This document shows, piece by piece, positions 2,491 through 41,040 of a DNA stretch of 64,000 nt. The position numbers and the translations under genes were made by a program. A model generated the notes under the pieces. The model saw only the letters and a program-made list of their open reading frames with translations, was not told where the DNA came from and did not search any database. Position 1 is the stretch's first letter, and every line of letters begins with the position of its first letter. The DNA is from an uncultured Pseudomonadales bacterium (GTDB taxonomy: Bacteria; Patescibacteriota; Microgenomatia; UBA1400; Chazhemtobacteraceae), in contig CAYQZQ010000001.1 in assembly GCA_964422035.1 (NCBI GenBank), positions 441,013 through 505,012 of the forward strand, read 5' to 3'.

Positions 2491-3239
2491 TCTTGAGTTG
2501 TATATTTTTCATTTTTAAGTTTTTTGGCCATCTTTTTCTCATTTGCGCTAGCAGTCTCTGATTTTAAATTAGCCTTAAAAGTAGTGCAAAAACCAGCTTG
2601 AATCGCTTGTTGTAAATTCGAGAAAGTGATATCAGGTAAATGGGTTTGAATGGTGCCGACTCGATCTTCGATTTTTTTTATATTTTTATCAGAAATTTTT
2701 TCAATGGGAATCTTCAGATACTTGACCATTTTATTTACATCAAAATCCAGCAACAGAGTTCCGTGCTGGAGTACGGTTCTGTTTTTCCTGGTTTGAGCAT
2801 TACCTGAAATCTTTTTTCCTTTAAGAGTAATGTCATTGATGCCAGATATGATTGCGTTTAAACCAAGCTGTTGTAAGCCTTCTATAATGCCTTGCTGGAT
2901 GACATGATAAGAATCTTGAATATCAGCCGGGATCATGGGGTGAGATTCTTTGATAATCAAGCTGTAGTTTAACTCCCCTTTGGGATCCTTATAAACAGCG
3001 CCTCCTCCGGTCATGCGCCGGAAAATAGCTACTTTATCCTGTTGGCAGTTATCAAGGTTCACTTCCTGGGCAATAGCTTGGAAATAACCGATTGACACAG
3101 CTGGCTGGTTCCAGCGATAAAAGCGCAACGTGGGTGGAGCTTGGTCTTGGCTGACTGCCCCTAAAACTGCTTCATCCACTGCCATGTGATGGTAGTAATC
3201 ACTGACCTCGTCAGTTGGCAGTAGTCGCCAAGATTTCAT
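2472..3239 (-). CDS. lplA: Lipoate-protein ligase A catalytic domain (split LplA-N); copy 1
   Basis: LRFYRWNQPAVSIGYFQ, RRMTGGGAVYKD and KISGNAQTR are characteristic BPL/LPL catalytic-domain motifs. 255 aa. Confidence 0.85.
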   Translation of the reverse strand: MKSWRLLPTDEVSDYYHHMAVDEAVLGAVSQDQAPPTLRFYRWNQPAVSIGYFQAIAQEVNLDNCQQDKVAIFRRMTGGGAVYKDPKGELNYSLIIKESHPMIPADIQDSYHVIQQGIIEGLQQLGLNAIISGINDITLKGKKISGNAQTRKNRTVLQHGTLLLDFDVNKMVKYLKIPIEKISDKNIKKIEDRVGTIQTHLPDITFSNLQQAIQAGFCTTFKANLKSETASANEKKMAKKLKNEKYTTQEWTYWR

Positions 3240-31066: not shown

Positions 31067-31327
31067 TTATCCAACAAGATTTGATTTTTGAGGAGGAAGC
31101 ACAGAAGGATTATTGTTTTCTTCTTTGTCTTTTCTTTTTTGCTCAATTAGTTTTTCAAGTGTTTTTTGCTGTTGTTTTTGATATTCTTCTTTGTCTACTT
31201 CTTGGAAGTTTTCTTTACCAGCAATATCTTTGAATTGCTCTGGATTGTAGACAGGAATAACGACACCGTGAGAGTTTTTGAAGTAGGAAACTTTGAAGTG
31301 GTTTGGTTGCTCTTTTTTTAAGGTCAT
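31067..31327 (-). CDS. Hypothetical protein
   Basis: 86-aa charged ORF with a coupled stop/start to the upstream gene. Confidence 0.35.
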   Translation of the reverse strand: MTLKKEQPNHFKVSYFKNSHGVVIPVYNPEQFKDIAGKENFQEVDKEEYQKQQQKTLEKLIEQKRKDKEENNNPSVLPPQKSNLVG

Positions 31328-31645
31328 AAATTAAGGGCGGATGTGCATAATTTATTTGACAAGCACTTGATCATCACTCATTGCATACACTTTATACATG
31401 AACCGATAGATGGCAGTCAAGACAACTAGATTGCTTAGGAAAGCATTTCTTTTCTATCAATCTTCATCGAAGAAAATCTATTTTTGTTCGGTTTAAGTTG
31501 GTAAAAATCCATATCACCTGTTTTATTATTAGAATTAATCAAAACTACCTCTCTAAAAGGGAACTTATGATTATTTAACCAATCTACTACTTCTCTTAGT
31601 TGAATTTTTATAAAAGGCCTTGTTGCTGGTCATTTCTGGACGACG

Positions 31646-31690
31646 AGGTTAAGGTTCCAATGTTTTTGGGGAAATCAAGAGTTTTGTAGG
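31646..31690. repeat. Copy of the tRNA-Gln downstream flank (aggttaaggttccaatgtttttggggaaatcaagagttttgtagg)
   Basis: About 85% identical to 43907..43958, which lies immediately downstream of tRNA-Gln. Confidence 0.55.
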
Positions 31691-31700
31691 GTGTATGTTC

Positions 31701-31760
31701 TGGTTGAGCAGGCAGGTCTCGAACCTAATCGTTCCATAAAATGAGACAAATGGGACAGTA
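31701..31760 (-). repeat. tRNA 3'-half-like pseudo-fragment A (T-arm, acceptor 3' strand and CCA; no 5' half)
   Basis: Reverse complement reads ...GATTAGGTTCGAGACCTGCCTGCTCAACCA, i.e. a GGTTCGAGACC T-loop and a CTGCTCA-A-CCA 3' end. No complementary 5' acceptor strand is nearby. Confidence 0.5.
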
Positions 31761-31784
31761 TAAAAAAAGGGTAATCTGCATACT

Positions 31785-33683
31785 TTGTTTGGCTTTTTTG
31801 AAATTTGTTCTGTTGGAACTTTATTAACTCAATATATAAGCTATAATTCAACTAAGGAAATAACTATGGCGGAAAAGTCCCCTCCCCAATCATCACATGC
31901 GAAAGATATAGAGCACTTAGACAATCTCGTTCAAAGAGCCAGTACAAAAAAAGAGAATGAACCCAAACGCAAAAAGAGTGTTGTAGTTGTGGGTTCTACC
32001 TACTTTCCCAACTTTGGAGATAAAAATGAAAATATCCCTGACAATATAAGGGGCAATCTAGTATTAGAAAGTTTAAAGAAACTAAACAATGAAGGTATCG
32101 ACGTGTGTGTAGTCGATGGTAGTAGCTCCGAAGCTTTTGTGGAAAAAGTAAAAGAAATAAATCCAAAACGTTTTAGCGAAGGAGGTGTGAGTAGAGAACC
32201 TGCTGATATACATGATTTTATCAACACTCTAGAGGTTTCTGAAGAGGCAAGTAAAAAGGGGGAAGACATCCCTGGAATCATATGGTTTGTTGAACAACAG
32301 GAAGAGGGCTATAGCCAAGCAAGGGTTGAGGTAATAAAAAGCGTTACGGATGTTGTAACAGGCTCTGTAGATCACGAAGCCATTTTTCAAATGGAGTTAG
32401 AGAAAACTCCTTTGGTCGGCGAGATAGAAAAAACAATCAAACCGATTGTAGAGGGACGGGCAGATATAGTTATCCCAGATCGTGGCATAAGGGTTAAGGA
32501 TTTAGGAGATGATCGGGACGATTTCCGTAATTATCCAAGATTTCAAGCCGTTTCTGAGAGAAAAGCAAATCTCCTCATACACCAGATGCTTGTAGAAGCA
32601 GGACTAAGGGGGGCTGAAGACTCTGTGCTAGATCTATTCGGGGGGACTAGGGCAATCAAAGATAAGCCAGACCTTAGAAGATTATTTGGCGAAACCTTTA
32701 AAATACCAGAAGATAGTTCCTTTTGGGGAAAAATTAAACCAGAAGCTTATTCTAACGCCGTATACTTTCCTGTCTATATTGCTCTTGCACTGGGCCGAAA
32801 GGTAGATTCTGTACCAATTGATTTCTCCTATCCAAAGAGTCAAACAGCACTAGAGGCACAGGATGAAAGTTATAAAGAGAAAAGACAAGAGCAATTCAAT
32901 GATATCGTAGGAGGCTCAAAATTATTAATAGACTTCTTGGGTAAAAAATTGAAAAAAGTGAAACTCGCAGAAAAAGTTCTTGATACAAAAAGGGTCCTAA
33001 ATTATCTTAGAAAAAACTCTGTGATTGAACTTGAGGAATTGCAATGGGAAGAAAAAAACCAATTTAGTGAAGAATTACATTACGACAAAGCAGATTTACT
33101 TTCCATACTTGAAAAGATAGGGCAAGGCGAAAAGATTGTTGAGCAACTTGACGATGCACTTGCTTCCTATCTTTCTAATTTCGACGCTGGTCACTCTTTT
33201 TTGAATTGGGATGAGTTTAAACAAGTACGAAAAAGGATGAATCTTTTGAAAAAGGGAGTTAATCTCTTTGGAAAAGAAAAAGAGGCTGAAAAAATTTATG
33301 AAAAATATAGAGATCAAATACTCAACAATCTATATAATACAACGCTTATTTTTTATTTATTGAGAAACTCTGGTGCATCTAGAAATTTAGACATTGCCTC
33401 TTTCTTTGCTGAATTTGTCGAGGTTTCAAAAACGGACTACTCCATAGCGGTGCTTTTTGGCACTTCAGACGACGCAAAGCTAGACGAGCTAAATAGTTTG
33501 ACAAAAAAATTTAACTTAACTGCAGGGGAAAAAAGACAAATAATAGTAGGGCTATCAAGACAGGTAATAATAAAGAAGCCGGAAACAGATAAGAAAGAAC
33601 TTATTGATGATTTAGGAGAGATTTTTGAAATTCCTCCTGAGGAGTTATCAGTAATTAGTAAAAGAGTGTTAGAAATAAGCTAA
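31785..33683 (+). CDS. Large hypothetical protein (possible N-terminal GT-A-like nucleotide-sugar transferase fold; likely start at MAEKSPP, 31866)
   Basis: 632-aa ORF. VVVVGSTYFPNF...LESLKKLNNEGIDVCVVDGSSSE resembles the GT-A N-terminal pattern. The rest is unrecognised. Flanked by fragments A and B. Confidence 0.45.
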   Translation: MFGFFEICSVGTLLTQYISYNSTKEITMAEKSPPQSSHAKDIEHLDNLVQRASTKKENEPKRKKSVVVVGSTYFPNFGDKNENIPDNIRGNLVLESLKKLNNEGIDVCVVDGSSSEAFVEKVKEINPKRFSEGGVSREPADIHDFINTLEVSEEASKKGEDIPGIIWFVEQQEEGYSQARVEVIKSVTDVVTGSVDHEAIFQMELEKTPLVGEIEKTIKPIVEGRADIVIPDRGIRVKDLGDDRDDFRNYPRFQAVSERKANLLIHQMLVEAGLRGAEDSVLDLFGGTRAIKDKPDLRRLFGETFKIPEDSSFWGKIKPEAYSNAVYFPVYIALALGRKVDSVPIDFSYPKSQTALEAQDESYKEKRQEQFNDIVGGSKLLIDFLGKKLKKVKLAEKVLDTKRVLNYLRKNSVIELEELQWEEKNQFSEELHYDKADLLSILEKIGQGEKIVEQLDDALASYLSNFDAGHSFLNWDEFKQVRKRMNLLKKGVNLFGKEKEAEKIYEKYRDQILNNLYNTTLIFYLLRNSGASRNLDIASFFAEFVEVSKTDYSIAVLFGTSDDAKLDELNSLTKKFNLTAGEKRQIIVGLSRQVIIKKPETDKKELIDDLGEIFEIPPEELSVISKRVLEIS

Positions 33684-33686
33684 AAC

Positions 33687-33736
33687 GTCTGAGCAGGTAG
33701 GTCTCGAACCTACTAATCCCATAACTGGACAGTGTA
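33687..33736 (-). repeat. tRNA 3'-half-like pseudo-fragment B (direct repeat of fragment A)
   Basis: Reverse complement is ...GATTAGTAGGTTCGAGACCTACCTGCTCAGAC, with a perfect T-arm GTAGG-TTCGAGA-CCTAC. It shares gagcaggNaggtctcgaacct plus the aatc..ccataa..ggacagt tail with fragment A. Starts 4 nt after the stop of the 632-aa gene. Confidence 0.5.
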
Positions 33737-33881
33737 TTTGAAGTTTGAAATTTCAAACATAATGAGCTTATGAGCCTCAAGCCCAGGCTCTATAAATGTT
33801 GTAATAATAAATCAATTGTTCACCTTAGTAAATTTTGTATATGATTATTTTAATGGACAAAGAAAATAAATATTAACTTTT

Positions 33882-34439
33882 ATGGTTGATATTACACTTA
33901 TTACAAGAAACGCCAAAAAGGTGCAATCAGCACAAGTTGCCATGAGCAGTCATGGTATAAAAGTTTTGCAAGAGAAGCTTGATACTCCTGAAATTCAGGA
34001 CAAAAATATTGATAAAGTTGCAGAATTTTCGGCGAAATTTGCCGCCGATGAATTAGGAAAGGCAGTTATAAAAGTTGATGTCGGTTTTGAAATAGAAGCC
34101 CTGAGCGGCTTCCCAGGACCTTTCTCTAAATTTATCAATGAGTGGCTACCTCCTGAAAAAGTATTGAGGCTTCTTGAGGGTGAGGAAAACAGAAATGCAA
34201 AATTTATTGATGTTGTTGCATTTAGCGAACCAGGAAAAGACCCTGTAAGTTTTAGATCAGAGACAATCGGTAAAATCTCATATCAATCGTCAGGTAATAA
34301 TGGTTGGGGCATTGACAAAATATTTATCCCAAAAGGATACAAGTGCACACTGGCAAGCCTAGAAAACGATAAGCGGGTAAAAGTTTGGAATACTGATCAT
34401 TGGAAGAAGCTTGCCCATTTTATTAAAAAAGAGAGATAA
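33882..34439 (+). CDS. Ham1/ITPase-family non-canonical purine NTP pyrophosphatase
   Basis: ITLITRNAKKVQSAQ and DVGFEIEALSGFPGPFSKF match the RdgB/HAM1 motifs. Confidence 0.75.
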   Translation: MVDITLITRNAKKVQSAQVAMSSHGIKVLQEKLDTPEIQDKNIDKVAEFSAKFAADELGKAVIKVDVGFEIEALSGFPGPFSKFINEWLPPEKVLRLLEGEENRNAKFIDVVAFSEPGKDPVSFRSETIGKISYQSSGNNGWGIDKIFIPKGYKCTLASLENDKRVKVWNTDHWKKLAHFIKKER

Positions 34440-34626: not shown

Positions 34627-35763
34627 CTAGGAGGCTTCCCAAGTGGAGTTTTCTATCAAATCTAAAGTATTTTTTGCATTTTGTTTAGCTTTTTTAGCAC
34701 CAGTTTTTAATATACCCGATACATAGTCTGGATCTTGAGTGATTTTTTGGCGCTTTTCTTGAAATTCATGAAGGAAATTTTTAGTTATCTTGGTTAATAT
34801 TTGTTTAAAATCACCCATAACTTTCTCACCCGACATATGTTTCTGAACTATTTGATCTATCATGTTTTTATCTTCTTCTGTTCTGGCAAGCTCTTGAGCC
34901 AAGAGAATATGACTTTTAAGTGTTTCGTTCATCTTCCCAGCAAAAGCTGTCTGTGCGCGTTTAATCTTATCTGCTGCTTCTTCAGGACTATCGGTCAGGA
35001 ATATTGCCCCTTTCGGGTTGGTTTTGCTCATCTTACCGTCACCTCTCAGTGACTGTAGCCTTAACGGAGCCTCAACTTCTAAAACTTTAGGTGTGGGCAA
35101 AATTTCTCCATATTGATTGTTGAATCTTCTAATCAACTTCCTGGTTACTTCCATGTGAGCTAGTTGGTCTTCACCTACAGGCACCTTGTGAGCTCTTTGA
35201 AGAATAATGTCTGATGCCATCATTACAGGATAAAGTAAAAGTAGGGCATTTGCAGTTTCAGGTCTTGAGTTTTTTTTGAGCTTATCTTTTAAAGTCGGAA
35301 CTCTTAGTAATTCAGAGGCACTAATGTGCCTAGATAGCCACGTCATTAAGGTAGTAACTTCTGGAGTAATCTCAGATTGAACAAATATATCAGTCCTTTC
35401 GGGATCAAGCCCCAGGGCAAGATAATCCGCTACTACTTCATTTGTGAATTTGCGAGCCTGATGAGGCTCATGATCTGTTAAGGCGTGTAGGTCCGCAACA
35501 AAAACCATGATCTCTTTCTCCTCATCCTGGAGTTCTACTATGGGCTTTACCGCACCTAAATAATTAGCAACGGTTAAATCGCCCGTTGGGCGAATACCCG
35601 TGAATATATCAACCATATAATCTTTTCTTTCCTTTTTTTCAGGACTATTTAGCATATCTTGATTCTTTAGTGTTTCAGACTTGTTTATAGTATCTTTTTC
35701 AGATTCTCTCATAGTTTGAGTAATTAAATCAAATCTGAGTACAAATGTCAATTTAGATTTCAT
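34627..35763 (-). CDS. trpS: Tryptophanyl-tRNA synthetase (full-length, with a ~60-aa N-terminal extension)
   Basis: TGIRPTGDLTVANYLGA (HIGH region), VFVADLHALT, and the KMSKS-type motif GDGKMSKTNPKG. Followed by the anticodon-binding helical domain. Confidence 0.85.
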   Translation of the reverse strand: MKSKLTFVLRFDLITQTMRESEKDTINKSETLKNQDMLNSPEKKERKDYMVDIFTGIRPTGDLTVANYLGAVKPIVELQDEEKEIMVFVADLHALTDHEPHQARKFTNEVVADYLALGLDPERTDIFVQSEITPEVTTLMTWLSRHISASELLRVPTLKDKLKKNSRPETANALLLLYPVMMASDIILQRAHKVPVGEDQLAHMEVTRKLIRRFNNQYGEILPTPKVLEVEAPLRLQSLRGDGKMSKTNPKGAIFLTDSPEEAADKIKRAQTAFAGKMNETLKSHILLAQELARTEEDKNMIDQIVQKHMSGEKVMGDFKQILTKITKNFLHEFQEKRQKITQDPDYVSGILKTGAKKAKQNAKNTLDLIENSTWEAS

Positions 35764-35803
35764 TATTAGAGGATAATCTGCATCAATGATATAATTTAAA
35801 AAA

Positions 35804-36856
35804 ATGGATAGACAAAAACAAGAAAAGATATCATCTGCAATTAAGCAAGTAATCGCTGGGAAAGATTTGGATAAAAAGAATTTGAAGGAAGTTTTTAAGA
35901 TTATATTGGAGCATGGGCTAGGAGATGCAAACGATGTTTCTTTTGGGGCTTTATTTGCAGCCCTACAGACTAAAGGTCCGACAGATAATGAGTTACTTGG
36001 CTTAATTGAGATTGTATTGAATTATGACAGAGAAAAAATTCCATACTCAGGGAATTCAAGCAATCTTTGTGGGGTAGTAGGAAGTGGTAAGGATGATATA
36101 AAAACTTTCAACATCAGCACTTGTGCGGCTTTTGTGGCCTCAGCAGCTGGAGTAAAAATGGTCAAAAATGGATCTCGCAGTGAATCTAGTATCGCTGGAA
36201 CCACGGACGTGCTTGAAGAACTAGGAGTAAAAATAAATCTTGAACCGGAAGAAGTTATTGAGGCTTTAGAAAAATATGGTATTACTTTTTGTGATGCAGG
36301 ACCTTATTTTCCCAGGATGAGTAGAGAATACGTTGGAAAATTTCTGTTTCCTCATCCACTGAGTTACACCTTATCCATAGCAAGTGGTTTAAGTTTTGAG
36401 AGGGTATTGTTTGGTGTTTCCTTTCCCGAAACTGAAAGGGTTGCTCATATTTTAAGAGAGCTTGGGTATCATGATTTCATGGTAGTTTCGGGTGAAGATG
36501 AAAAAGGTAGACGCTTCGATGAAATTTCAAATATCGGACCAACAAAGATCAGTGAGTATAAAAAGAATAAATTAAAAACTTATACTGCCAGTCCAGAAGA
36601 TTTTGGCATTAAATCCTCTGAGCATAAATACATTAAGGAAGGGGAGTCCGTAAAAGAGAACGCTAAAAAAATGCTAGATATTCTTAAAAATCAGACTGTC
36701 GCTCCAACGAGAGATGTTGTCTTGATAAACGCAGGAGCCCTCATTTATATAGCTGATAAAGCAGAAAGTATAAGAGAGGGCGTAAAAATGGCAAAAGAGG
36801 CCATAGAAAGCGGTGGGGCATTTGAGAAGTTCAAAAACTTGAGAGACTACAAATGA
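35804..36856 (+). CDS. TrpD-like protein (anthranilate phosphoribosyltransferase / glycosyl transferase family 3)
   Basis: CGVVGSGKDDIKTFNISTCAAFVASAAGVKMVKNGSRSESSIAGTTDVLEELGVK aligns with TrpD ..GTGGDG.NT.NISTAAAFV.AA.G..V.KHGNRS.SS..GSAD.LEA.G. The PRPP loop is altered (GSGKD instead of GTGGD). Confidence 0.75.
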   Translation: MDRQKQEKISSAIKQVIAGKDLDKKNLKEVFKIILEHGLGDANDVSFGALFAALQTKGPTDNELLGLIEIVLNYDREKIPYSGNSSNLCGVVGSGKDDIKTFNISTCAAFVASAAGVKMVKNGSRSESSIAGTTDVLEELGVKINLEPEEVIEALEKYGITFCDAGPYFPRMSREYVGKFLFPHPLSYTLSIASGLSFERVLFGVSFPETERVAHILRELGYHDFMVVSGEDEKGRRFDEISNIGPTKISEYKKNKLKTYTASPEDFGIKSSEHKYIKEGESVKENAKKMLDILKNQTVAPTRDVVLINAGALIYIADKAESIREGVKMAKEAIESGGAFEKFKNLRDYK

Positions 36857-38169
36857 ATAAAACAGTGAATCAAGGCTCCAAGTATACCGATTCTAAAATT
36901 GATTATATGGAGAGGGGTGAGTTGGAAAAATTACAATTAAAAAGGATAAAAGAAACGCTAAGGTGGGCATCTGAAAATTCTAGATTTTATCGTGAGTTGT
37001 ATAAAGAAATTTCAATAAAGACAATAAATAGTTTCTCAGATTTTAGAAAGCTACCTTTTACAACCAAAAAAGACTTGGTGAATAACTATCCTTTCGGAAA
37101 TCTGTGTGTGCCTCAAAAAGAAGTGGTTGAAGTTCATTTTTCTTCAGGTACAACAAATAGACCAGTTCCCACTTACATGACTCAAGAGGATTTATTATTG
37201 AGTAATGAGGCATTAGCGAGAACTTGGTATATGCAGGGGGTATGTTCGAATACCGTTTTTGGTATGCTTGCTTCTTATGGTCTATTTTCAGCTGGATTGC
37301 TGAATCATTATGCCATACAAAAGTTAGGGGCGTTTGTAATTCCTATTAGCTCATCTTCTACCGATAAGACAATAGGTTTGCTAAAAGACTATAGCATTAA
37401 TGCCACAGCAGCTGTAACTAGTTATTACTTATACCTTGTTAATAGGATAAGAGAATTAGGTTACTCTAAGGACAATTTTAATTTAGAGATTGCAATAGCA
37501 GGCGGAGAACCTTTTACTGAAAATCAACGAGACTATATTGAAAAGAATTTGGGGACTGAGTTGCTTGATCAATATGGTATTTCTGAGATTAATACCGGGT
37601 TGGCGGGAGAGTGTAAGCTCAAAAATGGATTACATATTTTAGCAGATTATGCATATCCAGAGATTGTTGATACTGAAACTGGGGAAGTCTGCGAGGAGGG
37701 GAAGTCTGGAGAATTAGTATTGACGACTCTTGCTAAAAGAGCTTCACCTCTTATTCGCTATAAGACAGGTGATATGGCGAGCATTACTTACAAGAAGTGT
37801 GGATGTGGAAGAACCTTACCTCGTATCTCAAAAATCATGAGAAGAAAAGGTGGTACATTGTTTTATAAAGGTAGGAAAATAGAGCGAGAATTTGTAATTA
37901 GTTTTATGGAAGATCAAGATGATTATCTGGATCCATACATTTGGAAGCTAATTTTGTCTGGCAATATGGGTAATCAGAAAATGTTTTTTAGGGTTTTGGT
38001 AAAAGGAGATAATAACCAAAAGGATTGCCTGAGAAAGCTTGAGATGGAATTTAAAAAGAAGGCAGGGATAAATGTTAAAGCTAAATTATTTTCTGAATCT
38101 GAATTAAAAAGCTTGGAAGAAGATAAGTTAAAACATTTTGTTGACAGACGCAAGGAGGTTGGTAAATAA
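36853..38169 (+). CDS. Adenylate-forming ligase of the PaaK / F390-synthetase / CapK family
   Basis: HFSSGTTNRPVPTYMTQEDL (the AMP-binding SSGTTG.P motif in PaaK-like spacing). 438 aa with the ANL two-domain layout. Confidence 0.75.
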   Translation: MNKTVNQGSKYTDSKIDYMERGELEKLQLKRIKETLRWASENSRFYRELYKEISIKTINSFSDFRKLPFTTKKDLVNNYPFGNLCVPQKEVVEVHFSSGTTNRPVPTYMTQEDLLLSNEALARTWYMQGVCSNTVFGMLASYGLFSAGLLNHYAIQKLGAFVIPISSSSTDKTIGLLKDYSINATAAVTSYYLYLVNRIRELGYSKDNFNLEIAIAGGEPFTENQRDYIEKNLGTELLDQYGISEINTGLAGECKLKNGLHILADYAYPEIVDTETGEVCEEGKSGELVLTTLAKRASPLIRYKTGDMASITYKKCGCGRTLPRISKIMRRKGGTLFYKGRKIEREFVISFMEDQDDYLDPYIWKLILSGNMGNQKMFFRVLVKGDNNQKDCLRKLEMEFKKKAGINVKAKLFSESELKSLEEDKLKHFVDRRKEVGK

Positions 38170-38170
38170 A

Positions 38171-39511
38171 ATGAGAAAGATATACACAATATTAGACGGA
38201 GAGAAATTGGCCGGGGATAGAGAGAAAGCAGTGATAAGCCCTTACTCTCTTAATCAGGTGGCCAATATTAATTATGCAAAATTAGAGAAAATTGAAAGAA
38301 AAAGAGCAAAAAAACATGATATGGCTTATCTGCGAAGAATACTACAAGATTTTGCAGATTATCTATCATCAGAATCCATTAAGTTAGCCAGAGTTGCCGC
38401 AGAAGAAACAGGGAGTCCAATAAAATATCACAAAAAAGACATTGAAGCTGTAATTGAATATATTGAGCATTTATGTGATGGTTTTGTATTTCAAGAAAGC
38501 CCATATGTTCATGAGTCTAAGGGAAAAGTCTTAATTCTGTTGTCGGCTAACGAGCCAGTTGTTTTAGGCACTATTCCATTATTAACGGCATTGATGACTG
38601 GGAACACTGTTTATCTTAAGCCATCTTCAAGGTCTCCATCTTATGCTTATTTAATCGTCAATAAGTTGCATAAATTAGGACTAGAAAGTGATCTTCTGCA
38701 TTTATTGCTTCCAGAAAAACAGGATATAGAGACCATCATTCAGAGACAAACTGTTGATTGTGTATTATCTTTTGGACATCACAAAACAAATAGAATATTA
38801 GGAGCTATTGCAGCTAAAGCAGGGGTCGAATTTATTCCAGAAAATGACGGAAACTGTTGGGCTTATGTTGATGAAGATTTTCCTTTTTGTAATAAGAAAT
38901 TGATATCAACAATAAAAAGGTCCGTGGTTAAGCACAATGGCCAGATGTGTGATTCATTACGCGGTTTATTAATTCACAATGAAGTTTTCGATGATATTTC
39001 CAAGGGAATAATAGAAAATATCAAAGATGTTAATATGGGTAATCCGTTAGATGTTTCGAGTGATGTAGGAGCTTTGCTAGTTGGTACAGCATCTAAGATC
39101 CCTGATCTTATAGAAGAAAGTAGTGGAAAGACCTATAAATACCATGTGGAAAACAATGTGGTGTCTCCTACTGTTGTTTTAGGTCCTCGTGCTGAATCGA
39201 CGTTAGTTGAAGATAGTGTTTTTGCGCCCGTTTTATGGATAAAGTCTGTTTCTGGACCACAAGAGGTAATTGAGTTATATAAGAGACATAATCACCATGG
39301 GTTATGCTTTTCAATATTCTCTAATGATGAATCCAGCATAGAGAAGTTAAGTAGAAACATCTCTGTGGGAAGGATAAATGTGAATTGCTCCCCGGTAGAA
39401 ATAGATGTTATGAGTCCGTGGGGAGGACTTAAAACGAGTGGTTATGGTGGGCCTACAAGTTGGTTTGACAGATTTACCAATAGAAAGGTAATAAACCATG
39501 GACAATTTTGA
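38171..39511 (+). CDS. Aldehyde dehydrogenase-superfamily protein (ProA / acylating ALDH-like); the ORF track gives 38138
   Basis: SFGHHKTNRILGAIAAKAGVEFIPENDGNCWAYVDED aligns with the ALDH FTGS..VG..I..AA...LELGGK motif. NGQMCDSLRGLLIH matches the catalytic-Cys region (compare ProA CNA.E.LLVH). An AAGGAGG SD precedes the ATG at 38171. Confidence 0.6.
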   Translation: MRKIYTILDGEKLAGDREKAVISPYSLNQVANINYAKLEKIERKRAKKHDMAYLRRILQDFADYLSSESIKLARVAAEETGSPIKYHKKDIEAVIEYIEHLCDGFVFQESPYVHESKGKVLILLSANEPVVLGTIPLLTALMTGNTVYLKPSSRSPSYAYLIVNKLHKLGLESDLLHLLLPEKQDIETIIQRQTVDCVLSFGHHKTNRILGAIAAKAGVEFIPENDGNCWAYVDEDFPFCNKKLISTIKRSVVKHNGQMCDSLRGLLIHNEVFDDISKGIIENIKDVNMGNPLDVSSDVGALLVGTASKIPDLIEESSGKTYKYHVENNVVSPTVVLGPRAESTLVEDSVFAPVLWIKSVSGPQEVIELYKRHNHHGLCFSIFSNDESSIEKLSRNISVGRINVNCSPVEIDVMSPWGGLKTSGYGGPTSWFDRFTNRKVINHGQF

Positions 39512-40154
39512 AATCGTAATAATAACTGGAGTTTCGGCAGATGGTAAGGTTACTCTTGGAGAAGGAGTAAGTAGCAAGAAGTTTGCGGCTTTGTTGTCTC
39601 CTGAGATGTCAGAACCGCTTCTAGAATTGAGACGGTGGGCGGATGTAATTTTAGTTGGGAGAAAAACAGTGAAGATAGACAACCCCTCTTTAAAATCCAA
39701 TGAAAATTCAGGACTAATTAGGGCAGTTATAGATAGAGAGATGCGCTTATCTTTAGACAAGAATATATTTGATGGGTCTGCGAGGACTCTAATTATTACA
39801 ACAAGCACAAACAAAGAGAAGGAGAGGCAGCTTAGACAAAAAGGTGTAGAAATTATAAGGATTTCACAAGAAGATTTTTTACCAGAATTAAAAAATGAGT
39901 TTGAGGAGCGTGGACTTTACAAGATAATGGTTGAAGGTGGAGGTAATTTGAATTATTTTATGTTAAAAAATCATTTTGTTGATAAAATCATCATCGCAAC
40001 TTTTCCTTTTATTGTAGGAGGAAAAGATACCCCAACTATAGTAGACGGAGAAAGCATAGCAACTATGAAAGAGGCAATAAAATTGAAATTAATTAGATCG
40101 TACTTGGTTGATAAAAATATGGTAGTAAATGAATTTGGGGTAGAAAATGACTAA
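39498..40154 (+). CDS. RibD C-terminal-type (dihydrofolate-reductase-like) reductase domain protein
   Basis: IVIITGVSADGKVTL...ADVILVGRKTV...KIMVEGGGNL matches the RibD_C / ArfC-like reductase layout. Confidence 0.65.
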   Translation: MDNFEIVIITGVSADGKVTLGEGVSSKKFAALLSPEMSEPLLELRRWADVILVGRKTVKIDNPSLKSNENSGLIRAVIDREMRLSLDKNIFDGSARTLIITTSTNKEKERQLRQKGVEIIRISQEDFLPELKNEFEERGLYKIMVEGGGNLNYFMLKNHFVDKIIIATFPFIVGGKDTPTIVDGESIATMKEAIKLKLIRSYLVDKNMVVNEFGVEND

Positions 40155-41040
40155 ACTTAAGAAAATTAAGCTGAAAAAATATTCTTCTTTAGATGATAAA
40201 TATTTTGCAAAAAGGCAATTATTATCAAAATCCTTAAATTTATCAAAAAAAGAACTTGGAGAGGTTTTTTCTGGTAAGGAAAAATACAAAATTGTTACAG
40301 GTTTTGGTCTAACAGGTTATTTTCATCTAGGAAGTAAATTGCTTCTAAACGAGGTAAAATTTTTTGCTGATCTTGGATTAGAAGCACAAATATTGTTGAG
40401 TGGATATGATACTAGAGTAAGAGGAACCACTAATTCCAAAAGCCCAGTACATATACAAAAAAGTATGTTGCAAATTATAGACAAACTAGACAAAAATGAA
40501 AAGATTAAAGTAGAGGAAAGATCCCCTGGAGTAGATTCCGAGATTTTCCAATCGATTAATGATTTAGTGAACAAAGATGATTTTGTTGAGTTTTATGGAC
40601 AAGAAATGGGTAAGAGTGGTAGAGATGCTTTGGTAGATATGGCAGCATCAATTATTGAAATTGATAATCAAAAGAAGATAGTTATATTGCTAGGGGTTGA
40701 TGAACTGGGTGAAGCTCTTTTCATCAGTCATGTTTATAAAAAGCTTGAGATGTCACCACCAGGTTTTTTATTCAATCATGTTGTACTCGGATATGACTCC
40801 AACAAAATGGGCAAGTCGCGTCCGGAATTTAGTTTAGTTATTTCATCGTCTGCAGAGGAAGAGATTAAGAAGGTTGAAAAATATCTTCGAAAAGATGGAG
40901 ATCACCGGAAATGTCCTTGTTATTATATAAATTTGTTCTCAAAGTATGGAGATCCCGAAATATCTACATGTAAGCGCGTGCATAAAAAATTACCTACGAT
41001 TATTAAAAAAGAATGTAAGGAGTTCGTGTCAAGCGACTAA
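40147..41040 (+). CDS. Truncated class-I aminoacyl-tRNA-synthetase-like paralog (TrpRS/TyrRS catalytic domain only, with a Cys-rich C-terminal tail)
   Basis: HIGH-like VTGFGLTGYFHLGS, KMSKS-like NKMGKSRPEF. No anticodon-binding domain. C-terminus HRKCPCYY..STCKRVH. 297 aa. Confidence 0.6.
   Translation: MTKLKKIKLKKYSSLDDKYFAKRQLLSKSLNLSKKELGEVFSGKEKYKIVTGFGLTGYFHLGSKLLLNEVKFFADLGLEAQILLSGYDTRVRGTTNSKSPVHIQKSMLQIIDKLDKNEKIKVEERSPGVDSEIFQSINDLVNKDDFVEFYGQEMGKSGRDALVDMAASIIEIDNQKKIVILLGVDELGEALFISHVYKKLEMSPPGFLFNHVVLGYDSNKMGKSRPEFSLVISSSAEEEIKKVEKYLRKDGDHRKCPCYYINLFSKYGDPEISTCKRVHKKLPTIIKKECKEFVSSD

What the first reader, a model, noticed from the sequence alone, without database searches (positions are those of the whole stretch)
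31701..33736. A single 632-aa gene precisely bracketed by two ~50-nt tRNA-3'-end-like direct repeats
Seen in sequence: fragment A (31701-31760) and fragment B (33687-33736) share gagcagg[c/t]aggtctcgaacct plus an aatc-ccataa-ggacagt tail, in the same orientation. They flank the 31785-33683 ORF with 4 to 40 nt spacers. B has a perfect T-arm (GTAGG-TTCGAGA-CCTAC). A has the CCA end but a degraded T-stem. Neither has a 5' half.

Inference: a mini-cassette inserted by site-specific recombination at a tRNA-like att site, or a decayed tandem tRNA array into which the gene was inserted. The enclosed protein is uncharacterised, with a possible GT-A-like N-terminus.
Basis: seen in the sequence. Interest (0 to 1): 0.55.

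Follow-up and report, generated by a model that had tools for sequence, protein, structure and literature searches.

The report
Glycosyltransferase islet bounded by tRNA-fragment scars
A single glycosyltransferase gene in a small candidate-phyla (CPR) bacterium sits between two leftover copies of the 3' part of a tRNA-Asn-like gene, the usual footprint of DNA that recombined into a tRNA gene; the only unusual points are that the insert is one gene long and has no integrase.

Summary
Two direct repeats (31701-31759 and 33689-33733) bracket one gene (31866-33683). Read on the minus strand, each is the 3' part of a tRNA: T-arm, acceptor 3' strand and discriminator. Neither has a 5' half, and ARAGORN and Rfam call no tRNA there. 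Copy B matches real tRNA-Asn(GTT) genes of other CPR bacteria at 24 of 25 positions and keeps GTT at the anticodon position.

The gene encodes a cytoplasmic GT-A-fold glycosyltransferase with a helical C-terminal domain. It is not a recombinase.

Its relatives sit in the same kind of bracket:
- A 46% identical gene copy, apparently from the same genome, lies between an intact tRNA-Asp and a 51-nt copy of that tRNA's 3' end.
- Other relatives lie between tRNA-Asp fragments.
- One distant relative lies between 94-nt repeats of a neighbouring gene's 5' end.

The A/B motif is itself a family. I found 17 copies in four CPR contigs. All are intergenic, and all copies on a contig share one orientation.

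My best reading is a small islet without an integrase, inside a tandem array of tRNA-fragment scars. It resembles the cis-mobilizable islands downstream of ssrA in Dehalococcoides. No integrase, empty site or intact parental tRNA could be found. This is a new member of a known kind, of moderate interest.

The parts
31701..31759 (-). Fragment A: the 3' part of a tRNA-Asn-like gene (about position 24 to 73, plus CCA). It has an 11-nt insertion relative to B and a degraded T-stem (TTAGG/CCTGC). It is probably the older, displaced original 3' end, because it keeps A73-CCA as the window's tRNA-Gln gene does.
   Evidence: nhmmer family hit at 31740-31703, E=2.4e-8; no tRNA called.
31760..31865 (+). 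Promoter and 5' leader of the glycosyltransferase gene. It includes TAAGCTATAATTCA (a -10-like box) and an AAGGA ribosome-binding site. It is homologous to the region upstream of the orthologue in L008.
   Evidence: Alignment with L008; sequence. The simple promoter scan did not score it.
31866..33683 (+). Cargo gene of 605 aa. Residues about 38-330 form an N-terminal GT-A-fold glycosyltransferase domain; the C-terminal half is helical. No signal peptide or membrane segment is evident by eye.
   Evidence: Weak Pfam GT2 hit below cutoff. AlphaFold model with pLDDT 71. Best Foldseek hits are mannosylglycerate synthase and glucosyl-3-phosphoglycerate synthase. 383 remote homologues, mostly ~300-aa GT2-like proteins. 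Full-length family has only 7 clusters.
33689..33733 (-). Fragment B: the 3' part of a tRNA-Asn-like gene (about position 24 to 73). It keeps CAGTTAT where the anticodon loop would be (GTT retained, U33 lost), has a shortened variable region and a perfect T-arm, and has no CCA. Its 3' end lies 5 nt from the stop codon of the gene.
   Evidence: 24/25 identity to the T-arm, acceptor and discriminator of tRNA-Asn(GTT) in L016 and L021. nhmmer E=1.4e-9.
31328..31700 (.). A 370-nt stretch downstream (in tRNA sense) of fragment A with no ORF of 50 aa or more. It is the presumed old flank of the tRNA or a decayed neighbouring islet. It holds a 64-codon stop-free stretch on the minus strand with no family match.

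Best explanation
A and B are att-type scars. They are two copies of the 3' segment of a tRNA-Asn(GTT)-like gene, created when a small circular DNA carrying the glycosyltransferase gene and one copy of that segment recombined into the tRNA gene, or into an earlier displaced fragment of it. This is a single reciprocal (Campbell-type) crossover, which necessarily leaves the insert between two direct copies of the shared segment.

The insert is now a 2-kb, one-gene islet with no recombinase of its own. If it still moves, it depends on an integrase encoded elsewhere, which would make it a cis-mobilizable element. Otherwise it is fixed.

The locus belongs to a plasticity zone of the kind known downstream of tRNA and tmRNA genes. 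Repeated insertions there leave a tandem series of fragments, all in one orientation, with islets between them.

Shown:
- the repeat and its tRNA origin;
- the absence of a 5' half;
- the enzyme nature of the cargo;
- the same architecture around relatives of the gene at an intact tRNA-Asp;
- the array-like family of fragments.

Inferred:
- the circular intermediate;
- the recombinase;
- the order of events, with A (A73-CCA) as the original chromosomal end and B brought by the insert;
- the loss or relocation of the tRNA 5' half.
For: (1) The repeat is significant and ends exactly at the tRNA's discriminator position; the flanks beyond it differ.

(2) B matches genuine tRNA-Asn(GTT) genes of Ca. 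Dojkabacteria (L016) and of a 1.14-Mb uncultured bacterium (L021) at 24/25 positions. These include about 9 positions that my search pattern left free. GTT is retained at the anticodon position in B and in L009_371, and position 36 is T in all clear copies.

(3) The textbook arrangement exists for relatives of the same gene:
- L001 (P0006, apparently the same genome): tRNA-Asp 3' end, gene, 51-nt repeat at 92%.
- L002 and L054: intact tRNA-Asp, gene and six more genes, then a 54-nt repeat at 96%.
- L003, L004 and L006: an extra 2.2-kb four-ORF islet between the intact tRNA-Asp and a 100% identical 54-nt repeat. This is a polymorphism among near-identical strains.

(4) Every tRNA-Asp repeat starts at the same base (GAGTG). 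It is preceded by a conserved element-side motif, ACACATA(A/G)CATATT, in two different islets. The Dehalococcoides ssrA islands have a comparable 15-bp motif next to their repeat (PMC3146451).

(5) 17 tRNA-Asn-like fragments occur in four CPR contigs. All are intergenic and share one orientation per contig. They bracket single genes: HflX, a 173-aa ORF, a 130-aa ORF and this glycosyltransferase.

(6) The T-stem is not maintained: 64% of cells are paired and the outer three pairs are mostly broken. The fragments do not fold better than shuffles. They therefore behave as DNA remnants, not as structured RNAs.

(7) The principle is established. Integration splits a tDNA, island sequence restores it, and the displaced 3' fragment marks the far end (PMC4383910). 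tRNA gene fragments arise from integrated elements (PMC9897764). Tandem islands without integration modules occur at Dehalococcoides ssrA (PMC3146451).
Against: - No intact tRNA adjoins either copy, so one defining feature of a tDNA island is missing here.
- No integrase was found in the islet, in the other islets examined, or in the 64-kb window.
- No empty site or excised circle was seen. No relative is closer than 68% TrpRS identity.
- The glycosyltransferase family was not found on any viral or plasmid record, so no vehicle is known.
- In the related contig L058, fragments bracket a block containing housekeeping genes such as TrpRS and TrpD. That is odd for islands and needs later rearrangement to explain it.
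- Fragments in L058, L008 and L009 carry TCTAGA in place of the canonical T-loop. That sequence would not suit a working tRNA, so they seem to be copied from one another or from element-borne sites.
- Fragments remain recognisable between lineages whose cargo proteins are only 57-78% identical. That is longer than neutral scars should last.
Confidence: 0.62

Rival explanations
1. The topology is the same, but no site-specific recombinase is involved. A circular or concatemeric piece of foreign DNA, taken up for example by natural transformation, carried a conserved tRNA segment and integrated by RecA-dependent homologous recombination. tRNA genes would serve simply as the most conserved homology patches shared between species.
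For: No integrase was found anywhere examined. A distant relative of the gene (L064) is bracketed by a 94-nt, 84% identical duplication of a neighbouring protein gene's 5' end and promoter, not of a tRNA; a homology-driven mechanism explains that easily. The duplicated segments are long (45-94 nt). RecA is present in these lineages (L012).
Against: The shared start point of the ten clear tRNA-Asn-like copies in three contigs, and of all tRNA-Asp copies, looks like a defined att site. So do the conserved element-side motifs next to the repeats. Start points set by the anticodon loop are a known integrase sublocation (PMC4383910). Forty to fifty nucleotides is short for efficient RecA recombination.
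Confidence: 0.15
2. The fragments are a functional, actively maintained dispersed element rather than passive scars. They could be recombination sites of an integron-like system in which a single trans-acting recombinase moves gene cassettes in and out, or a 3'-end element of transcripts.
For: Density is high in relatives (8 copies in 21 kb in L058, 4 in 9.8 kb in L008), with uniform orientation. By my tabulation, 9 of 17 copies lie shortly downstream of a co-oriented gene's stop codon: 1 nt after AhpC, overlapping the end of the 130-aa ORF, and 15 nt after the hydrolase gene (coordinates). A double unit with an identical 15-nt linker is conserved between two lineages. Copies are recognisable across deep divergence. 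Single-gene cassettes recur.
Against: No IntI-like or other recombinase gene was seen. The hairpin is not conserved and there is no folding signal. In this window both copies are antisense to the bracketed gene. The conservation at the ends of the motif is partly an artefact of the search template I used. Only two copies occur in the 64 kb of this window. Blocks between the fragments contain multi-gene, mixed-orientation housekeeping genes.
Confidence: 0.12
3. The fragments are remnants of a tandem array of whole tRNA genes that decayed, and the gene landed between two of them by an unrelated event.
For: tRNA gene clusters are common. Both copies have the same isoacceptor-like sequence.
Against: Independent decay would not remove the 5' half at the same position in A and B (both start at ACTGTCC), nor truncate the ten clear related copies at TATGG (one reads ATGAGG). 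No trace of D-arm or 5' acceptor sequence lies upstream of either copy. The parallel tRNA-Asp loci show one intact gene plus truncated copies only.
Confidence: 0.03

Closest known systems
Genomic islands integrated in tRNA/tmRNA genes (the Islander principle; PMC4383910; Williams 2002 as cited there)
   Same: Direct repeats consisting of the 3' segment of a tDNA mark the ends of the inserted DNA. The repeat runs from the anticodon-loop region to the 3' end, which is one of the recognised crossover sublocations. A related copy of the gene (P0006, L001, apparently the same genome) shows the canonical arrangement of intact tRNA plus displaced fragment.
   Different: Here neither end is an intact tRNA. 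The insert is 2 kb with one gene and contains no integrase, so it would fail Islander's own filters.
Tandem ssrA genomic islands of Dehalococcoides, including those without an integration module ('cis-mobilizable elements', PMC3146451)
   Same: A small-genome bacterium has a series of many direct repeats of a tDNA 3' end in one orientation, with islets between them. Many of those islets lack any recombinase. A conserved short motif lies on the element side of each repeat. The cargo is metabolic enzymes.
   Different: In Dehalococcoides the repeat is 20 bp of ssrA and a serine recombinase (DsiB) is found in many of the islands. Here the repeat is about 38-57 nt of a tRNA-Asn-like gene and no recombinase has been found at all. 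Some intervals hold housekeeping genes.
Integron gene cassettes
   Same: Single-gene units each carry one recombination site, are stacked in one orientation, and have no recombinase of their own.
   Different: No IntI gene or attI site was seen. The sites are tRNA-derived and their hairpin is not conserved. The cargo gene has its own promoter and lies antisense to the sites.
tRNA gene fragments reported in prokaryotic genomes (PMC9897764)
   Same: Partial, non-canonical tRNA genes left by the integration of genetic elements.
   Different: Those examples were described mainly in Thermococcaceae and next to recognisable integrated elements. Here they occur in CPR bacteria, around one-gene inserts.
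GT-A-fold cytoplasmic glycosyltransferases such as mannosylglycerate synthase and glucosyl-3-phosphoglycerate synthase
   Same: They are the best structural matches to the N-terminal domain of the cargo protein. Remote sequence relatives score as Pfam Glycos_transf_2.
   Different: Sequence identity is about 10%. The Foldseek E-value is only about 1e-3. An extra ~270-residue helical C-terminal domain is present. No substrate can be inferred.

Membership tests
tDNA-integrated genomic island (Islander-type) | An intact, regenerated tRNA gene at one end | tested here: not met
   ARAGORN and Rfam find no tRNA at or next to A or B. The feature is met at related loci L002, L003 and L054 (intact tRNA-Asp). 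In L001 only the 3' end of the tRNA is visible at the contig edge.
tDNA-integrated genomic island (Islander-type) | A displaced 3' fragment of the same tDNA, in direct orientation, at the other end | tested here: met
   A and B are directly oriented 3' fragments with a 23-nt core at 96% identity.
tDNA-integrated genomic island (Islander-type) | An integrase gene inside the island | tested here: not met
   The only gene is a GT-A glycosyltransferase. No Pfam or PHROG recombinase hit.
tDNA-integrated genomic island (Islander-type) | The repeat begins at a recognised crossover sublocation (anticodon loop or T-loop/junction) | tested here: met
   The ten clear family copies begin at TATGG (one reads ATGAGG), which is tRNA position 36 onward. 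In A and B homology runs a little further 5', to ACTGTCC.
tDNA-integrated genomic island (Islander-type) | An uninterrupted (empty) site in a related genome | tested here: inconclusive
   The nearest relative (L058) has only 68% TrpRS identity and synteny ends just after TrpRS. Two exact-protein look-ups for this genome returned nothing.
Cis-mobilizable element (CIME) | Flanked by attL/attR-type repeats but encoding neither recombination nor transfer functions | tested here: met
Cis-mobilizable element (CIME) | A cognate element with an integrase that recognises the same att site, in the same species | not testable with these tools
   Only 64 kb of the 725-kb genome is available. No recombinase was found in it by a crude phmmer search. 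There was no match to the motif in viral contigs, and only coding-sequence chance hits and one phage tRNA-Gln for the T-arm/acceptor pattern.
Integron cassette | attC site with a conserved imperfect hairpin, and an adjacent IntI/attI platform | tested here: not met
   The stem is paired in only 64% of cells and the outer pairs are mostly broken. No tyrosine recombinase was detected in the window.
Functional or split tRNA | A cloverleaf, or a complementary 5' half that provides the acceptor strand TGAGCAG | tested here: not met
   U33 is lost in B, the variable region is shortened, and the T-stem of A is broken.
MITE-like dispersed repeat | Terminal inverted repeats, target-site duplication, many copies on both strands | tested here: not met
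   The copies are directly oriented and have no inverted ends. Only 2 copies lie in 64 kb here. Related contigs have more, but all in one orientation.
GT-A glycosyltransferase (GT2-like) | GT-A Rossmann-like fold with an acidic nucleotide-sugar/metal-binding motif | tested here: inconclusive
   The fold is supported by the AF2 model (pLDDT 71) and Foldseek hits to MGS and GpgS with probability 1.0 but E about 1e-3. Pfam GT2 scores 18.6 bits against a cutoff of 23.3. Invariant acidic residues exist (D84, E177, E179, D205), but the catalytic motif was not mapped.

The most novel reading that the evidence does not exclude
In some CPR (Patescibacteria) genomes, tRNA 3' halves may serve as the recombination sites of an integron-like cassette system. 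One recombinase, encoded elsewhere, would insert, excise and reshuffle short units, often a single gene each bounded by a tRNA-Asn or tRNA-Asp fragment. These units would build long one-orientation arrays that even take in housekeeping blocks. The glycosyltransferase would be one of its recurrent cassettes.
Probability: 0.13. Interest if true: 0.75.

Novelty: new member of a known kind. Interest (0 to 1): 0.4.

Why it matters
CPR bacteria have tiny genomes and few recognisable mobile elements, so how they gain genes is poorly understood. This locus and its relatives show tRNA-fragment-bounded islets as short as one gene, without integrases. The same rare glycosyltransferase family is caught in such brackets at three different targets: tRNA-Asn-like, tRNA-Asp, and the 5' end of a protein gene. 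That points to a concrete and testable route of gene flow in these organisms. It also flags a class of tRNA fragments that annotation pipelines should not mistake for genes. If the fragments prove to be active sites served by a trans-acting recombinase, the system would be a simple natural cassette platform.

Tried and rejected
**Parental tRNA**
- An exact 22-mer of the T-arm and acceptor gave 0 hits in 185,579 species genomes, so this genome is not in that collection.
- A structured pattern (5' acceptor, gap, T-loop, 3' acceptor) gave 40 hits, of which 3 were real tRNAs.
- No third copy and no intact tRNA-Asn lie in the window.

**Functional RNA**
- Rfam gave nothing at gathering threshold or at E<=10.
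- Folding of either strand is no better than shuffles.
- T-stem covariation is weak.

**Cargo as recombinase**
- Rejected: GT-A fold, no match to solved structures by sequence, and only an 'unknown function' PHROG hit.

**Integrase**
- None in the small ORFs of the other islets.
This is a crude test.
- The ORF-free 370 nt next to A has no family match.

**Vehicle**
- No relatives of the gene in IMG/VR, INPHARED phages or PLSDB plasmids.
- The tRNA-Asp and tRNA-Asn motifs in viral contigs gave only chance coding hits and one phage tRNA-Gln.

**Empty site**
- TrpRS orthologues show no close relative.
- Look-ups of this genome's own proteins were not on record.

**tRNA-Gln as parent**
- Considered because the orthologue in L008 abuts an intact tRNA-Gln(CTG), and because tRNA-Gln genes in L047 and L066 share the T-arm and acceptor.
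- Rejected because position 36 is T in all clear copies and GTT survives in two. The window's own tRNA-Gln and that of L008 also have different acceptor stems.
Full report
**1. The observation**

The window carries two directly oriented copies of a short sequence. The best ungapped pair is 31705-31739 versus 33690-33724, 86% identical over 35 nt. The 21-mer core occurs exactly twice even with three mismatches allowed, against zero expected from shuffles.

Read on the minus strand, the copies are the 3' part of a tRNA:
- B (33733 down to 33689): ACTGTCCAGTTATGGGATTA-GTAGG-TTCGAGA-CCTAC-CTGCTCA-G.
- A (31759 down to 31701): the same, but with an 11-nt insertion, a damaged T-stem (TTAGG/CCTGC), discriminator A and a CCA end.

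Neither copy has a 5' half. ARAGORN and Rfam find only tRNA-Glu and tRNA-Gln elsewhere in the window. A permissive Rfam scan of 31300-34200 finds no tRNA signal. The 5' acceptor strand that would be required, TGAGCAG, is not present in a suitable place.

The database protein and all homologues begin there.

**2. Organism and cargo**

The neighbouring genes are bacterial housekeeping genes: Lon, RecJ, RelA/SpoT, the CCA-adding enzyme, several aminoacyl-tRNA synthetases, TrpD, Ham1 and Nudix hydrolases. The closest named TrpRS relatives come from Parcubacteria, Paceibacterota and Falkowbacteria. The protein is recorded on a 725,544-bp contig. I therefore infer a CPR/Patescibacteria genome.

The cargo protein has no Pfam hit above cutoff; Glycos_transf_2 scores 18.6 bits. 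A profile search finds 383 relatives, mostly ~300-aa proteins that do score as GT2. The AlphaFold model (pLDDT 71) has an alpha/beta N-terminal domain and a helical C-terminal half. Its best structural matches are mannosylglycerate synthase and glucosyl-3-phosphoglycerate synthase. It is an enzyme, not a recombinase. The full-length family is tiny, with seven 90%-identity clusters.

**3. Which tRNA**

An exact search for the T-arm and acceptor found nothing in the species-representative genomes. A structured pattern found three true tRNAs:
- tRNA-Asn(GTT) in a Ca. Dojkabacteria genome (L016);
- tRNA-Asn(GTT) in a 1.14-Mb uncultured bacterium (L021);
- tRNA-Gln(CTG) in a chlamydial MAG (L047).

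All three read GTAGG-TTCGAGT-CCTAC-CTGCTCA-G. That is B with one mismatch in 25, including positions the pattern had left free.

B keeps CAGTTAT where the anticodon loop would be. In all clear family members the base at position 36 is T, and GTT survives in two of them. Asn is therefore the likeliest identity. tRNA-Gln genes can share the same arm.

**4. Relatives of the gene sit in the same kind of bracket**

- **P0006 (L001).** This protein is 46% identical to the window's gene and is recorded on a contig of the same 725,544-bp length, so apparently from the same genome. It lies between the 3' end of a tRNA-Asp and a 51-nt, 92% identical copy of that tRNA's 3' part, on the same strand as the gene.
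- **P0005 lineage.** An intact tRNA-Asp is followed by the gene, a badly decayed remnant, six more genes, and then a 54-nt repeat at 96%.
- **Strain polymorphism.** Some near-identical strains carry an extra 2.2-kb four-ORF islet between the intact tRNA and a 100% identical 54-nt repeat (L003, L004 and L006 versus L002, L005 and L007). This is direct evidence of recent gain or loss at that site.
- **P0004 lineage.** The gene lies between two tRNA-Asp fragments with no 5' halves, exactly as in the window.
- **Shared boundaries.** Every tRNA-Asp repeat starts at the same base. It is preceded by ACACATA(A/G)CATATT in two different islets.
- **Closest orthologue (P0003, L008).** A decayed copy of the tRNA-Asn-like fragment lies upstream of the gene and a homologous promoter region follows it. 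An intact tRNA-Gln sits just past the stop codon.
- **P0007.** It lies near a tRNA-Pro and a transposase remnant.
- **P0278 (L064), a distant relative.** It is bracketed by a 94-nt, 84% identical duplication of the 5' end and promoter of the neighbouring gene.
- **Other distant relatives.** Two show no such features.

The protein identities split into an Asn-type clade (55-61%) and an Asp-type clade (70-78%). At least three independent bracketing events are therefore needed.

**5. The A/B motif is a family**

A template scan found the clear copies; it returned no hits in ten shuffled windows. A profile search added weaker ones. Together they give 17 copies:

| Contig | Copies | Span searched |
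|---|---|---|
| This window | 2 | 64 kb |
| L058 (nearest relative by TrpRS) | 8 | 21 kb |
| L008 | 4 | 9.8 kb |
| L009 | 3 | 7.8 kb |

All copies are intergenic, and all share one orientation within a contig. They bracket single genes: HflX, a 173-aa ORF and a 130-aa ORF. In L058 they also bracket the block containing TrpRS and TrpD that is syntenic with window 34639-41016.

The ten clear copies begin at TATGG (one reads ATGAGG) and end at the discriminator. The T-stem is paired in only 64% of cells and the outer pairs are mostly broken. Folding is unremarkable. Two lineages share a double unit with an identical 15-nt linker.

**6. Interpretation**

A single reciprocal crossover between a circle carrying a tRNA segment and the chromosomal tRNA gene leaves the insert between two direct copies of that segment. 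This is the established principle for islands in tRNA and tmRNA genes (PMC4383910) and the known source of tRNA gene fragments (PMC9897764).

[quoted passage not shown] It has more than a dozen direct repeats of the gene's 3' end, tandem islands, fifteen islands without any integration module (interpreted there as cis-mobilizable elements), and a conserved short motif beside each repeat.

The present locus fits that kind. It is a 2-kb, one-gene islet without an integrase, inside a series of fragment scars. A, which keeps A73-CCA as the window's tRNA-Gln gene does, is plausibly the original chromosomal end, with B brought by the insert. That ordering is inference.

**7. What does not fit, and the rivals**

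Points that do not fit the scar model:
- No intact tRNA adjoins either copy.
- No integrase was found in any islet or in the window, though the window search was crude.
- No vehicle was found among viruses or plasmids.
- No empty site could be examined.
- Fragments in three relatives carry TCTAGA in place of the canonical T-loop, so they seem copied from element-borne sites rather than from a working tRNA.
- Fragments are recognisable across deep divergence.

These points leave room for two rivals. One is integration by homologous recombination without any integrase, favoured by the 94-nt non-tRNA duplication in L064. The other is an actively maintained, integron-like site family served by a trans-acting recombinase.

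A decayed tandem tRNA array is disfavoured, because all copies lack the same 5' portion. A functional or split tRNA is excluded by the absence of any 5' half and by the damage to the loop and stem.

**8. Verdict**

This is a new member of a known kind. Interest is moderate, because it documents very small integrase-less tDNA-bounded islets and a recurrent cargo gene in CPR bacteria. There is a modest chance that a cassette system lies behind it.

Noticed in passing
L001:1-2030 (Logan SRR7048227 contig; apparently the same genome as the window): A second copy of the glycosyltransferase (P0006, 46% identical, recorded on a contig of the same 725,544-bp length) lies between the 3' end of a tRNA-Asp and a 51-nt, 92% identical copy of that tRNA's 3' part. 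Here it is on the same strand as the tRNA. The genome therefore seems to hold two such one-gene brackets at two different tRNAs.
   Followed up: yes
L064:1362-1455 and 2977-3070: A distant relative of the gene (P0278, 465 aa) is bracketed by a 94-nt direct repeat (84% identical). The repeat consists of the first ~50 nt and promoter of the neighbouring 471-aa gene. In the second copy the start codon is mutated (ATG to ATA). The topology is the same as in the window, but the target is not a tRNA.
   Followed up: partly
L058:1492-20427 (JGI Ga0366827_1000001, 390-kb contig): Eight tRNA-Asn-like 3' fragments lie in 21 kb, all on one strand. They bracket HflX alone, a 173-aa ORF alone, and a 9-kb block with DEAD helicase, TrpD, TrpRS and other genes. 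Most copies have TCTAGA where a T-loop should be.
   Followed up: partly
L058:19617-19709 and L009:371-281: A double fragment unit is conserved between two different lineages. The two copies are about 20 nt apart and joined by ATTYGCTGGGAAT-AGTACCGTAAG, with 15 nt identical. It may be an empty att-arm junction or a composite site.
   Followed up: partly
L003:1602-3947 versus L002:3871-3946: Near-identical strains differ by a 2.2-kb islet of four unknown ORFs (188, 132, 159 and 200 aa) inserted between tRNA-Asp and a perfect 54-nt repeat. The gene upstream of the tRNA also differs: a PHP-domain gene is present in one type only.
   Followed up: partly
window:31328-31700: A 370-nt stretch has no ORF of 50 aa or more, directly beside fragment A. 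A 64-codon stop-free stretch on the minus strand (PATRPFIKIQLREVVDWLNNHKF...) looks protein-like but matches no Pfam family. It may be a gene remnant.
   Followed up: partly
window:33743-33790: Just past fragment B lie a perfect 16-nt palindrome, GTTTGAAATTTCAAAC (33743-33758), and a GC-rich hairpin, GAGCCT-N7-AGGCTC (33772-33790). The scan's only terminator-like hit (33785-33763) falls here on the minus strand. These may be terminators between the glycosyltransferase gene and Ham1.
   Followed up: no
window:28694-31064: A NYN-domain gene is followed by three consecutive Nudix or Nudix-like genes next to the islet. A Nudix gene also lies two genes beyond the glycosyltransferase in the tRNA-Asp island of L002. 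This may be coincidence or shared island cargo.
   Followed up: no
L008:5825-5896 and window:44006-44079: An intact tRNA-Gln(CTG) lies 34 nt past the stop codon of the orthologous glycosyltransferase in L008, on the opposite strand. In the window a tRNA-Gln(CTG) in the same relative orientation lies 10 kb away, with the TrpRS block and fragment B in between.
   Followed up: partly
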